Made by a program: the position numbers and the translations under genes. DNA of 64,000 nucleotides. Source: Eledone cirrhosa (taxonomy: Eukaryota). Positions 36,243 to 62,803 of this stretch are shown piece by piece (position 1 is the stretch's first letter; each line of letters opens with the position of its first letter). The stretch lies in assembly GCA_964016885.1 (NCBI GenBank), contig OZ024743.1, positions 86,304,001 through 86,368,000 on the forward strand, given 5' to 3'. The notes beneath the pieces were generated by a model. The model was not told the origin of the DNA. It ran no database searches and saw nothing but the letters and a program-made list of their open reading frames with translations.

Positions 36243-36373
36243 ATAGGAAGAAGTATGACCCCGACAGCAGAGCTCAAGCCGTTTCGACGGCTATTTCTGT
36301 ATTTCTGGACTCAGTCCAGAAATAGCCCTCGAAACGGCTTGAGCTCTGCCGTCGGGGTCATACTTTTTCCTAT
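36243..36373. repeat. ~130 bp palindrome made of two inverted hammerhead 3' halves
   Basis: Right arm ..AGCCCTC-GAAAC-GGC..GCC-GTC^-GGGGTCA; the left arm is its reverse complement; the centre is hairpin TCTGGAC-TCA-GTCCAGA. Confidence 0.8.
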
Positions 36374-36920
36374 TTCCCACTCTACTACTCTAACTATTGA
36401 GTACTCTGGTGCGTTATGGTCCATCTGGTTCCTTACCACAATTCCTTTGTTATATATATATATTAGGTTTATATATATCAATATATATTGATATATATAT
36501 ATATATAGTCAATAAATGAAACAATACAAAATACAGGAAGCAAAATTAGTTATATTTGGTTTATATATATATCAATATATATTGATATATATATAAACCT
36601 AATATAACTATATAGTCAATAAATGAAACAAAACAAGACACAGGAAGCAAAATTACAGTTATATTAGGTTTATATATATCAATATATATCGATATATATA
36701 AACCTAATATAACTATATATATATATTTCGTTTCTGAATTTGTTTAGCAAGATTCTTTATCTGAAAACGTGTCTTGAAACCGATATTGTTATACTTTGGG
36801 AGGGTCATGTTGCCAATAAGAAACACACGCACCAGTTGCTTTCACTTCAATTTATTATATTAAATTTATATATTTCCGGTTGGTTGGTTGGTTCCACAAC
36901 CAGATGGTTGTTTATATATT

Positions 36921-36963
36921 GTCAAAGTTCTTTCGTCACACATTCTGTGACCTCTTCAGTGAC
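36921..36963 (-). ncRNA. Minimal hammerhead motif
   Basis: Reverse complement of 37508-37550. Confidence 0.65.
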
Positions 36964-37507
36964 TGGGGATTCTTTTCTTTGTTTTTTTGTTTTTTGTGCC
37001 TCTCCTTTGTTCTGTCCTACGCCATCTTGTTTTTGTGTGTGTGTTGTGTGCTTAGTTTGCGCATGTGTTACATCCGGGTGTCTGTGTGTGTTTATATTCG
37101 TTTATTTATTTGTTTATTTATATGTAAACTGGTTGGTTGTTTGTTCTATGTGCGTGTGTGTTTTCGTTTTGTCTAAACATTGCGTCAAAGACGCAAAGAC
37201 GTCAAAGACGCAATGTTTAGACAAATCACAGAGGCAATAAACATAAAAGAATTACAACCAAAATTAAATAGAAAACATGAGTGGAACAGCAACATCACAA
37301 CTTACAATTAAGAACAAAATGAAAACACACACGCACATAGAACAAACCTGAAACATGTAAATAAACAAATAAATAAACGAATATAAACACACACACAGAC
37401 ACCCGGATGTGGCGCATGCGCAGACTGAGCACACAACACACACACAGAAACAAGATGGCGTAGCACACAACAAAGGAGAGGCACAAAAACAAAGAAAAGA
37501 ATCCCCA

Positions 37508-37550
37508 GTCACTGAAGAGGTCACAGAATGTGTGACGAAAGAACTTTGAC
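37508..37550 (+). ncRNA. Minimal hammerhead motif
   Basis: GTCA-CTGAAGA-g-GTCACA(gaatg)TGTGAC-GAAA-GAA-CTT^-TGAC. Confidence 0.65.
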
Positions 37551-38243
37551 AATATATAAACAACCATCTGGTTGTGGACCCAACCAACCAACCGGAAATT
37601 TATAAATTCCTAAATTTATAAATTTATTATAATAAATTGAAGTGAAGCAACTGGTGCGTGTGTTTCTTATTGGCAACATGACCCTCCCAAAGTATAACAA
37701 TATATATATATATATATATAGTCAATAAATGAAACAAAACAAGACACAGGAAGCAAAATTACATTTTCATGCGGTTTATATATATCAATATATATTGATA
37801 TATATAAACCTAATATAACTATATATATATATATATATATATATATATATATATATATATATATATATATATATATATATTTATATATATATATGCTATA
37901 TATATATACATATATATATATATATATATATATATATATATATACTATATATATATTTATATATATATATACTATATATATATATATATATATATATATA
38001 TATACTGTATATATATATATATATATACTGTGTGTATATATATACATATATATATATATATACTGTATACATACATATATATATATATATATATATATGT
38101 ATGTATACAGTATATATATATATATATATGTATATATATACACACAGTATATATATATATATATATATATATATACAGTATATATATATATATATATATA
38201 TATATATATATATATATATATATATATATATATATATATTATC

Positions 38244-58947: not shown

Positions 58948-61900
58948 AATAAACAATACAATATAATTACCTCATTACCAGAGGTTTCCCGAATAAGACG
59001 AATACGAAAAACGTCCTCACTCGTTTATCGGACAAGGCAATTTAAAACATACTGAAATATTTGAAAAATCTCCCCAAGAAAGGCAAAAGTTTAACGGGCA
59101 AAAAAAATATATAAATAAAAGTAATGCAAAAGATATATAAAAACATAAGGAAATATAGTTAGGGTATGTGTATATGTATGTATATACACTCACAAATGTA
59201 CATATGTGTGTATGTACAAATGCATGTGTATGGTGAAAATGTGTGCGTAAGTACATATATGAGGGCAAGTATATTTGTGTAGGTGTGACCACAAATACGT
59301 ATATAATATGAGTTGAAAAAGAAATTGTAAGATAATATAGTTAACACACATGCATATACAGGTATTAAATATATACACATACGAGTATGAAAGCACGCGT
59401 ATAAACACACACACACGCGCGATCACTTATATGCGGAAGATAAATAGGGAAGGGAGTGTAATATAGTAAAAAGAAGTGTCAATCTCGATATATGTATAAA
59501 AATGAAGCAATATATGAGAATGAAAAAAATTTTTTTAAATCAAAGAGAAAAAAGAAAACAAACATAGGTACGCACGTACACACATACATATATATAAATA
59601 TATATACATAAAAATACGTACAGACAAAAGCGCGTGCATGCGTACATACATACACACGAGGCACGTATATATATATATATATCGCCACATGTATATCTAA
59701 TCACACGTACGTACGCGACTATATATATATATATATATATATATATATATATATATATATATATATATATATATATATATATATACACACGCCCATACAT
59801 ACATATACATACATATACACATACATTCACCCACATACACACACACGTATAAATAAGTATGTAAAAAACATAGATATAAAAACACACATACACACACATA
59901 TATACGCACGCACACATACGGAGGCGTTCGTATACATATACAGAACGTATGCACACTCACACGCATAGATACAAATTATAAACCAGCCGCATGAATAAAT
60001 GAGTACAAATATAAAATCGGCTGCGAAACAACAGAATATATCTTGAGTGGAAAATGCAAGTGACATGTTGTATCAGGTAGTGAAAGAAATGGGGAAATAA
60101 AATGTGGAATGTGATGATATTAGGTAAGTGAATCAAAAAGTAGGTGGGGGGGGGGGTACTGGTGGATGTGAAGTAAAAATAAAAATAAAATTAAAAATGA
60201 AAGTAAATCAGAAAGAGAAGTCTGTAAAGAGGATAATTTAAGGAAAGTGAAGAACAAGAGTTTATGGAGGATAAGTATCTGAAAGTGAGTTAAGTTTATA
60301 TGAGCTGGAAAGCAAGTGTGATTTCATGTGTGGGCAACTGGTGAAAATTTCTGTTTTTGCGTTTAGGCAGGTTTTTGGTGATTTAAGGTTCTGTAAAATC
60401 CAATATTTTTCACTTATGCAGAGTGTGCATCTTCTTGTTCCGCTTGCATATTCTTTAGATTGGTTCAAAATTGACCAATCCAATTTATATTGGATACCTT
60501 GGTCTTTCAAATCCCATATTCTGCTAGCCAGAGCTGTTGTAAATCTTTTTTCTGGATGTCAGAAAGATGCGACATGTGAGTAATAATGCGTTTTGAATTT
60601 GTCTTGTGTCATACCCACATATCGTTCGCTGGTGGCTGGTAGGTTGTTGCTGATGGTTGTCACTTTAGCCGCATAAACAATGGCTTTGGTGTTGCATTTA
60701 CCTTGTAATGGGCATTCACTTTTGACTCTACAGGAGCAATTTTGATGTTCTCTGGGTGTTTTCTTATTGATGATATAAGATTTAATAGGGGGACCGCAGG
60801 AGTAGCTAATTTTGACACAGTTTCTATTGAAGATCTTATAGTATCTATGTGTTCTAGGGAAATGTTTATCTAAGAGCTCTAGGAATTTTTTGCCTACATT
60901 AGTTTTAACTGCTAGAGAGTAGGGGTGTGTGAACCAGATTATTTTTCTTTTCCTATTATTATGTTTAAAGGAGTTAGTATTGTTGGGTATGTACTTAATC
61001 GGTTCGCTAAATTCGCTATTTTGAAGGGCTTTATTATAGTAGGGGGATGCCTTATTGAAAATAGCTTCTGAGGAAGAGAGGGTGGAGATCCTACGGCTAA
61101 TATTAGGGATAAGGTTTTTAAAAACTATAGGAGGATGACAAGAGCCTTTATTTATATATTTTAAATTTTCATTAGGTTTATGGTACGGTTTTTAAGAAGC
61201 AATAGGCAGATCTAGGTTTATATCTAGAAAATTAACATTGGAAAGGTTAGTGTCAATAGTAATTTTAAGATTAAAACTAGCGAAGGTTTTTATTAAGTCT
61301 TTCCTTAATCTATCTAAGTTATGGCCTATGGTGGTATGGGAAAGTATTAGACCATCGTCGCGCCAAAAATATGGTTAGGGAATTTTTCTTTAAGTGTGTG
61401 TAGGAGGAATAGGCCGACTAAATCACAAACATCAGCAGTCAAAAGAACCCATTGAGACATCGAATAGGTTCTCTGGGTTAGATATTTTTACCCAAGTGTC
61501 ATTATTAGTAAAAAGTAGAGTGTTTCTAGCCTGCAAGATGACATTCTCTTCAATATCAGAAATATTGATAAACTTTCTAGCGAAATTTAAGGCTTTCGCT
61601 AAAAGAGGGGGAGTAATAGACGGGTAGAAGTCTACAATGTTAAATTGGGTGAATCTAGAACTATTTTTATCTTTAATATTATTAAATCAATGTACTACGG
61701 AAGAGCTATTTATCCATTGGAGTAATTCAGACTTACTTCTAATTTGTGTGTTTATATTATTATTTTTGCTAGTAAGACTGATATCAGTCTTAGCAGGGTT
61801 GATTAATCTACAACTAGGACGATTAATAAAATCAGGTTTGTGATCTTTGAGGGTGATATAGGCATTACGTTTAGCAAGTTTTTCTGTTCTATTATCTATT

Positions 61901-62243
61901 TTTAAAACACTAGCTAATTCTTTAGCTTCCCTATTTATATTATTATACGTCTTTATATTAGCTATTTGGTATTTAGAGGTGATGTTATCTATTAAGAGTT
62001 GGTCATGTAAATTATTATTAACTTCGTATCAGTTTTTAGTTTTGTCGGAGAAAATGAACTTATTTTTAGAGGATTTGAATATTGAAATATCATTAGATAG
62101 TTTAGATTGAAAAGGTTTTTTTTGCCCGTTAAACTCTTGCCTTTCTTGAGGAGATTTTTCAAATATTTCACAGGACGTTTTTCGTATTCGTCTTATTCGG
62201 GAAACCTCTGGTAATGAGGTAATTATATTGTATTGTTTATTAT
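58948..62243 (-). mobile_element. Second-type Penelope-like element (Naiad-like), pseudogenised, with inverted 5' pLTR fragment
   Basis: Minus strand ~62110-60262 reads SDKTKN, K..AYITLKDHKPDF, RLINPAK, FYPSIT, RDDGL, CSCRVKSECPLQGKC, AIVYAAK..YVGMT..FK, CTLCISEK. 58948-59107 = rc of 62114-62243. Degenerate hammerhead at ~58971-59035 (minus). Confidence 0.88.
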
Positions 62244-62589
62244 ACATTAAATTTAGCTCTGGTACTTACATATGACTTACTTCACTCCTATGACTTTTTC
62301 AATTTTCAACGGAAACTTCAATATATATATATATATATATATATATATATATATATATATATATATATATATATATATATATATATATATATATATATAT
62401 AAATGAGGTAAATATCTCACTGAGTACTAAGTACCCATAGAGATATATAGGGTGTCTATAATATAATTGTTGTTCTATGGTACTAATTCGAGATACCAGA
62501 ACTATAAAAATTGATGAGCAGAACAAACAAACATTAAACAATCCTTTAAATAAATTAAAAAATGATTTAAATATCTACCTGTTCATAAT

Positions 62590-62668
62590 GCTATTACCGG
62601 CGGTTTCTATCTACAAAAGATTGGAAATTCAGAGAATTTCCAACGGAAAGTAGATTTCATCAGATAGC
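62590..62668 (-). ncRNA. Hammerhead ribozyme, paralogue of 46002-46083
   Basis: GCTAT-CTGATGA-A-ATCTAC..GTAGAT-A-GAAACC-gcc-GGTA^-ATAGC. Confidence 0.82.
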
Positions 62669-62760
62669 TATTTCCTTTCCTTCGATATGCAAATTGGGCT
62701 ACTCAGCCGTTAATATGCATTAGGTAAGTATATACGTTCAATAATCTGGCAGGAAGGTAT

Positions 62761-62803
62761 ACGTTGCTGACGATAGCTAATAAGCTTGAAACTAGTACAT
62801 CGT
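62761..62803 (+). ncRNA. Minimal hammerhead ribozyme, paralogue of 41003-41045
   Basis: ACGTTG-CTGACGA-T-AGCT(aata)AGCT-T-GAAAC-TA-GTA^-CATCGT; region 62690-63010 is homologous to rc 40790-41125. Confidence 0.78.

What the first reader, a model, noticed from the sequence alone, without database searches (positions are those of the whole stretch)
36243..62803. Foldbacks share one polarity: hammerheads point outward toward the flanks
Seen: the left HHR is minus and the right HHR is plus in ten pairs: 36243/36373, 36921/37508, 38309/38998, 42802/44350, ~45860/46002, 48786/49715, 50023/50737, 54616/58618, 58971/~62200 and 62590/62761. Two of these (48786/49715, 62590/62761) join different families head-to-head. 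Most units are bounded by (TA)n. Known: PLEs often carry an inverted 5' pLTR. Inference: both ends of a break in TA repeats are primed on RNA 3' ends, sometimes two different RNAs, giving ORF-less MITE-mimicking foldbacks.
Basis: partly seen in the sequence, partly recalled or inferred. Interest (0 to 1): 0.78.

Follow-up and report, generated by a model that had tools for sequence, protein, structure and literature searches.

The report
Penelope foldbacks pair short, long ends
In this genome, likely an octopus's, Penelope-type retrotransposon ends sit back-to-back in TA repeats, almost always one short end with one long end, which likely means both sides of a DNA break copy the same RNA from two fixed start sites.

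Summary
The polarity is real and genome-wide, but known. In 1.2 Mb sampled at preset places, neighbouring hammerheads with no (TA)n between them faced outward 17 times, in tandem 5 times, inward never. Head-to-head inversion, TA targeting and a tail at one end are published for Penelope-like elements (PLEs). Details need correcting: pair 1 has no hammerhead core, only four pairs have two complete cores, and different-family pairs are rare (2 of 50 abutting junctions). New here: (1) 131 of 135 foldbacks join a short 3' end to a long one with a ~50-170 nt tail; (2) the two arms share private variants, so they likely come from one source; (3) 29 of 113 resolved units have shapes that the published snap-back model cannot make without later deletion; (4) the tail carries a covarying bulged hairpin just 3' of the short start, also present in coral and sea-cucumber Hydra-clade PLEs. 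Best model: programmed twin priming of one RNA at two internal start sites (0.62), not priming on RNA 3' ends.

The parts
36243..36450 (.). Pair 1: foldback of family P1 (3' end of a Hydra-type PLE, no hammerhead core); short arm 36243-36299 (-), long arm 36312-36450 (+)
36379..36402 (+). Tail hairpin of P1 (ACTC...GAGT; inner stem mutated in this copy)
   Evidence: sequence; family form
36726..37703 (.). Pair 2: foldback, intact hammerheads 36925-36959 (-) and 37512-37546 (+); long end left, short end right
38235..39333 (.). Pair 3: foldback of a ~600-nt unit with U3:A8 hammerhead core; short end left, long end right; tail hairpin 39168-39227 (+)
39959..40374 (.). Unlisted different-family head-to-head junction at 40110 (pair-2 family on -, pair-10-right family on +)
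42575..44514 (.). Pair 4: 5'-truncated Hydra-type PLE on - (GIY-YIG ORF 43673-44368, CxCx4C linker) with long end at 42575; inverted short arm 44348-44514 (+)
45773..46267 (.). Pair 5: short arm 45773-45899 (-, lacks CUGANGA), long arm 45899-46267 (+) with hammerhead 46008-46077 and tail hairpin 46165-46195
48066..49789 (.). Pair 6: three families; 48066-48762 (-), hammerhead arm 48763-48880 (-), Hydra-type 3' part 48880-49789 (+, short end)
49832..50877 (.). Pair 7: foldback with intact hammerheads 50027-50098 (-) and 50741-50812 (+); long end left with tail hairpin 49917-49940 (-)
54417..58920 (.). Pair 8: Neptune-like PLE on + (Asn-rich stretch 55484-56182; RT plus C-terminal GIY-YIG 56148-58451), long end at 58920; inverted short arm 54417-55265 (-)
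58946..62321 (.). Pair 9: broken Hydra-type PLE on - (RT/EN pieces 60559-62028, CxCx5C) carrying the SHORT end at 58946; inverted arm 62116-62321 (+) carries the long end
62402..63016 (.). Pair 10: different-family junction at ~62680; left arm (-) long end, hammerhead 62595-62663, tail hairpin 62472-62502; right arm (+) hammerhead 62767-62797

Best explanation
These units are Penelope-like retrotransposon 3' ends joined head-to-head between (TA)n runs with one short and one long end, likely made by twin priming in which both ends of a break in (TA)n copy the same RNA from two fixed internal start sites. Inferred steps: a PLE dimer binds the RNA near a bulged hairpin in the tail and cuts both strands of (TA)n; one DNA end primes at the short site just 5' of the hairpin, helped by a few bases of UA match, and the other primes about 50-170 nt downstream; both cDNAs run toward the RNA 5' end, stop at variable places or at the transcript start, and are end-joined, which gives the palindromic centre. 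Short transcripts from solo termini would yield the ORF-less, MITE-like majority. Rarely a different RNA, or a later deletion, gives a different-family pair.
For: Shown: PLE ORFs attached to these ends. 3' end at TA 177, 5' end at TA 7, both 12, neither 87 of 283 annotated pieces in 800 kb. Short+long in 131 of 135 units; terminal inverted repeats with a 30-200 nt offset 40 versus 3 symmetric in the first sample (10 more had other offsets) and 29 versus 3 in held-out DNA (15 other offsets). Long side left 21, right 19. Arms differ less within than between units in 5 of 5 families (e.g. 0.007 vs 0.058) and share minority alleles beyond all 2000 permutations. Of 113 resolved units the short arm reaches further upstream in 18, the long arm in 18, the long arm is tail only in 11, equal in 66. 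At least 2 nt of TA match at the short end in 68 of 77. Hairpin in at least half the members of 12 of 19 tail clusters, 0.8 expected; 12 of 29 held-out tails, 0 on the reverse strand. Illumina reads and contigs of two other studies show foldback joints, including tail-only ones, and TA loose ends at the short end. Literature: a PLE protein cuts and extends both strands, models as a dimer and starts at two internal sites bounding the tail (PMC11167929).
Against: No biochemistry here. Later deletion in a palindrome's centre could mimic the 29 units that exclude snap-back. Shared alleles could come from conversion between arms or from one dominant source locus giving two RNAs. Overlapping arms need strand displacement or a multimeric/circular RNA, untested. 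Long arms do not stop at the short site more than chance (9 of 43 vs 5.7, p=0.11), which a collision on one RNA might predict. The hairpin descriptor was derived from these tails, is absent from the Neptune-like pair-2/pair-8 families that still pair short with long, and was not the predicted fold for three of seven window tails (pairs 1, 4, 9). PMC11167929 found no difference in start site between top and bottom strand and no homology at the start.
Confidence: 0.62

Rival explanations
1. Snap-back: one cDNA is primed at the long site, its 3' end folds back at a palindrome and copies itself outward, and the endonuclease resolves it at the short site; later deletions reshape the centre (close to the self-priming idea of PMC3846280 and the 'EN-mediated resolution' of PMC8557442).
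For: Explains short+long pairing and shared alleles; many centres are palindromic and 66 of 113 units have equal arms; papers seen.
Against: 29 of 113 units have sequence in the short arm that the long arm lacks, up to ~3 kb in pair 9 and ~900 nt in L153 and L154; either arm is the longer equally often (18 vs 18); tail-only joints occur in raw reads.
Confidence: 0.2
2. One reading: two independent RNAs are each primed at their 3' end, one on each side of the break, often from different families.
For: Three different-family junctions in the window; pair 10 joins a long end to what appears to be a short end.
Against: Independent RNAs would give about half short/short or long/long pairs (seen: 4 of 135) and no excess allele sharing; different-family junctions are 2 of 50 in preset blocks.
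Confidence: 0.1
3. DNA-level foldbacks or assembly artefacts: hairpin repair at (TA)n or chimeric reads duplicated the sequence in inverted form.
For: The window holds palindromes without hammerheads, one 99.8% perfect over 1.3 kb with TA at its centre (41203-42518).
Against: The arms end at family-specific, unequal points, exclude flanking DNA, differ by 1-10% and have copy-specific centres; joints appear in independent short reads.
Confidence: 0.04
4. MITEs: each foldback family moves as a unit by a TA-targeting Tc1/mariner transposase.
For: Small size, inverted arms, TA flanks; P1 units cluster near 200 bp.
Against: Termini are not inverted repeats (one has a tail); centres differ between copies; the same ends occur on ORF-bearing PLEs and in tandems.
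Confidence: 0.04

Closest known systems
EN+ PLE insertions with an inverted 5'-truncated pLTR and optional tail (Penelope of Adineta vaga, PMC3846280; general scheme in PMC8557442 Fig. 2)
   Same: Head-to-head inversion, palindromic junction, tail at one end, partial tandems, Asn-rich ORF insert (pair 8).
   Different: Tail there is 30-40 bp and called optional; here ~50-170 nt and paired with a short end in 131 of 135 units. Those papers propose self-priming or EN resolution, not two primings.
Hydra-clade PLEs (PMC8557442)
   Same: C-terminal GIY-YIG with CxCx5C-type linker, canonical hammerhead in the 3' part, (TA)n target; an octopus member is listed.
   Different: The bulged tail hairpin, the short/long rule, the mass of ORF-less foldbacks and a hammerhead-free family (P1) are not in the parts read.
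PAc (Poseidon of Anolis) in vitro mechanism (PMC11167929)
   Same: Two internal start sites bounding the tail, both strands cut and extended, predicted dimer, hammerhead dispensable.
   Different: Does not address inverted insertions or assign one site to each DNA end; reports no homology at the start, whereas short ends here show 2-8 nt of TA match.
LINE-1 twin priming (recalled, not read here)
   Same: Both target ends prime on one RNA and give a head-to-head 5' inversion.
   Different: In L1 the second site is opportunistic and the segments barely overlap; here both sites are fixed and the arms usually overlap.
Animal non-LTR retrozymes (10.64898/2026.07.22.740005, part 1 of 5 read)
   Same: ORF-less type I hammerhead units derived from PLE pLTRs; ~420-600 nt tandem periods seen here.
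   Different: Defined as tandem arrays; here the common form is an inverted pair.

Membership tests
EN+ Penelope-like elements | RT with C-terminal GIY-YIG endonuclease in one ORF | tested here: met
   Pair 8 ORF: weak RVT_1 match, 125 homologues, best 68% to an Octopus vulgaris RT protein; GIY-YIG-like motif read from the translation. No tree built.
EN+ Penelope-like elements | pLTR in tandem or inverted arrangement with tail at one end | tested here: met
EN+ Penelope-like elements | Minimal type I hammerhead in the pLTR | tested here: met
   absent in family P1; cleavage not assayed
Hydra clade | CxCx5C linker before GIY-YIG, no CCHH, (TA)n target | tested here: met
   CxCx5C in pair 9 and in the pair-6-right family, CxCx4C in pair 4, a spaced variant in P1's ORF
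Hydra clade | Placement by RT phylogeny | not tested
   No tree built; ORFs are truncated or broken
Neptune clade (pair 8) | CX2-5CxxC linker plus CCHH in EN | tested here: inconclusive
   Linker present; CCHH only partly recognisable in this copy
MITE (Tc1/mariner-type) | Matching terminal inverted repeats and a constant internal sequence | tested here: not met
   Termini offset by the tail; centres vary
Non-LTR retrozyme | Tandem hammerhead units, circular RNA | tested here: inconclusive
   Tandems seen for some families; no RNA run listed

The most novel reading that the evidence does not exclude
Penelope-like elements integrate by obligatory, programmed twin priming: a dimeric, telomerase-related RT binds one RNA at a bulged hairpin conserved from corals to octopus, assigns one fixed start site to each end of a double-strand break, and so has filled this genome with on the order of 10^5 self-propagating foldbacks that annotation would likely file as MITEs or SINEs.
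Probability: 0.45. Interest if true: 0.82.

Novelty: new variant of a known kind. Interest (0 to 1): 0.63.

Why it matters
How PLEs form their inverted repeats and tails is stated as unresolved in PMC8557442, and the one in vitro study leaves the later steps open. The short+long rule, the shared alleles and the snap-back-incompatible shapes link the two in vitro start sites to the genomic inversion and give a direct test in an existing assay. The tail hairpin is a candidate cis-signal for a whole PLE clade. For cephalopod genomes, 114 hammerheads and 69 offset foldbacks in 1.2 Mb extrapolate roughly to 10^5 of each, a class that repeat pipelines could mislabel.

Tried and rejected
Rfam found no hammerhead at gathering or among the 150 listed E-value hits; a descriptor scan replaced it, and its first version missed most motifs (fixed). 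The genome search for one family returned nothing. Arm extents by all-against-all BLAST were confounded by similar foldbacks (not used). One search used one reversed and one composite reference, giving false tail-to-tail rows; one search corrects it. Long arms stopping at the short site: not significant, dropped. Extra G at the P1 start hot-spot as a cap trace: the base before AGTCC is T in 10 of 10 natural-context copies but G 22, C 17, T 19, A 3 at foldback heads; suggestive only, a subfamily allele is not excluded. MAFFT could not align the tail hairpins (one row was also mis-chosen), so no alignment-based covariation score was obtained. No RNA holder listed. No long reads or second haplotype were available, so the window's different-family junctions and empty sites remain unchecked. 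Earlier-findings look-ups were empty.
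Full report
Setting. The window is G000:C4:86304001-86368000 of a 3.0-Gb genome. The best named homologue of the pair-8 protein is from Octopus vulgaris at 68%, so the host is likely an octopus. From 35.5 kb on, the window is a mosaic of short units between (TA)n runs.

Observation. Self-BLAST confirms the inverted arms. A descriptor scan finds minimal type I hammerheads, with none in shuffled controls. Two complete cores exist in pairs 2, 7, 10 and 3; pair 3 has U3:A8, a swap at the C3-G8 pair whose double-mutant rescue is described in PMC11167929 (that U3:A8 is a natural active variant is recalled). 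Pair 1 has no core; the others have one truncated or degenerate side. Five further hammerheads lie in the span, and neighbours across (TA)n often face inward, so the real claim concerns units bounded by TA.

Genome-wide test. Sixteen 50-kb blocks at preset round coordinates gave 74 hammerheads; of 44 adjacent pairs under 5 kb, those without (TA)6 between were 12 outward, 4 tandem, 0 inward, and all 12 outward pairs were one family; those with TA were 14 inward (3 same family), 6 outward, 8 tandem. Eight held-out blocks gave 40 hammerheads, and 5 outward, 1 tandem, 0 inward without TA. By homology, abutting arms without TA were head-to-head same family 48, head-to-head different family 2, tail-to-tail 2 and tandem 15 in the first blocks; 153, 3, 3 and 70 in search-derived loci. 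The polarity is general; different-family pairs are about 2-4%, although the window holds three (40110, 48880, 62680), with the right-arm families continuing differently in other copies.

What the units are. Pair 8 carries an RT with a C-terminal GIY-YIG and a CX4CxxC linker (Neptune-like); pairs 4 and 9, the pair-6-right family and P1 are attached to Hydra-type ORFs (clade features from PMC8557442 section 11). Most units have no ORF: 29 of 40 are 600 bp or less. The families are abundant (651-5285 first-look candidates per query).

The short/long rule. Each family has two 3' end points, the long one adding a ~50-170 nt tail. Among 135 units aligned to family references, 131 pair one short with one long end; the four others are a double foldback, a likely mis-assigned unit and two small units without true ends. 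De novo, terminal inverted repeats were offset by 30-200 nt in 40 units and symmetric in 3 (10 had other offsets) in the first blocks, and 29 versus 3 (15 other) in held-out blocks, where one symmetric unit carries two hammerheads and is a true exception and two look like DNA transposons by their first bases (not verified). In the window the rule holds in the eight same-family pairs and appears to hold in pair 10; pair 6's left end is missing.

One source. Arms of one unit are closer than arms of different units in all five families tested (P1 0.044/0.090, F0 0.007/0.058, F2 0.028/0.038, F3 0.021/0.097, R6 0.027/0.040; 97 units), and shared minority alleles exceed all 2000 permutations each. 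Conversion is not excluded, but unshared differences are common.

Against snap-back. PMC3846280 (passages and Discussion) already calls head-to-head the most frequent arrangement, notes the optional tail on one inverted pLTR and proposes self-priming. A strand that folds back can only copy what it contains. Of 113 resolved units (18 unresolved, 4 same-end set aside), 18 have a short arm reaching further upstream and 11 a long arm that is tail only; 18 have the long arm further and 66 are equal. In pair 9 the short arm carries the whole ORF. Reads and contigs from two other studies (organism A) show joints from the short arm into many points of the long arm, including tail-only ones in 84 and 218 raw reads from 3 start sites each; library chimeras are not formally excluded. 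Later central deletion remains the main escape for snap-back.

Start sites. PMC11167929 (parts 1-2 of 4) shows a PLE protein cutting and extending both strands, starting internally at two sites that bound the tail, with a predicted dimer and a dispensable hammerhead. Here the short end shares at least 2 nt with the TA repeat in 68 of 77 measurable units. Heads cluster at initiator-like sequences in P1 and F0, consistent with cDNAs reaching a transcript start (inference).

Tail hairpin. A few to ~15 nt 3' of the short end, tails hold RYTC, an inner stem, a loop of 3-51 nt, the stem's partner, a 1-2 nt bulge and GARY; the outer helix occurs as ACTC/GAGT, GCTC/GAGC and GTTC/GAAC and the inner stem varies freely while pairing. 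It is in at least half the members of 12 of 19 tail clusters (0.8 expected; descriptor post hoc) and in 12 of 29 held-out tails, never on the reverse strand. Read by eye in the six Hydra consensus sequences of the PMC8557442 supplement (parts 52-53): clear in three (Hydra-2_Amil and Hydra-2_Ajap 3' of the hammerhead, Hydra-1_Ajap at its 5' start), imperfect in two (Hydra-1_Crog, Hydra-1_Amil), not seen in Hydra-1_Obim, which ends soon after the hammerhead. It is absent from the Neptune-like families. Single-sequence folding recovers it in four of seven window tails. Its function is inferred.

Literature. Seen: PMC8557442 passages, section 11 and supplement parts 1, 2, 52, 53 of 59; PMC11167929 parts 1-2; PMC3846280 passages and Discussion; 10.64898/2026.07.22.740005 part 1 of 5; PMC13282606 passages (no 'hammerhead' in its text). 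L1 twin priming is recalled. Searches listed no paper on twin priming of PLEs, a short/long rule or this hairpin; the library lacks most subscription journals, including older PLE reviews, and unread supplements may bear on this.

Verdict. The polarity is confirmed but known; the hammerhead inventory and the weight on different-family pairs were overstated. The quantified end asymmetry, common source, arm geometry and conserved hairpin are new in what I could search and make the PLE inversion mechanism testable. Interest 0.63; new variant of a known kind.

Noticed in passing
window 41203-42518: A 1.3-kb palindrome, 99.8% perfect, with (TA)n at its centre and both ends and a SINE-like repeat in each arm; unlike the PLE foldbacks it is symmetric: recent DNA-level inverted duplication or assembly artefact.
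   Followed up: no
window 45012-45387, 47443-48067, 52907-53383: Further hammerhead-free palindromic units between TA runs; families not identified.
   Followed up: no
   Followed up: partly
window 36451-36726, 37720-37810, 39820-39900: A ~107-bp repeated unit with an internal palindrome lies beyond the ends of the pair-2 family at three places, in part inverted, suggesting flank duplication or read-through.
   Followed up: no
window 55484-56182: Asparagine-rich stretch upstream of the pair-8 RT, recalling the N-rich inserts of Adineta Penelope ORFs (PMC3846280).
   Followed up: no
window 36243-36450 and L192-L220: Family P1 is a very abundant Hydra-type 3' end without any hammerhead core in ~1 kb upstream; heads cluster at an initiator-like AGTCC, often preceded by a G not in long copies.
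   Followed up: partly
window 38998-39070 and L272-L285: Hammerhead family fixed for U3:A8 in the core with a ~60-nt stem II; cleavage untested.
   Followed up: partly
window 46345-46690: Small unit with a weak DDE_3 match (E 0.039), likely a Tc1/mariner remnant in TA.
   Followed up: no
window 1-24000: Periodic composition and recurring (AAT)n and TGT-rich arrays suggest a ~6-kb tandem repeat; not examined.
   Followed up: no
window 33048-35376: Array of a 99-bp CAC-rich unit, about nine copies at 98% identity.
   Followed up: no
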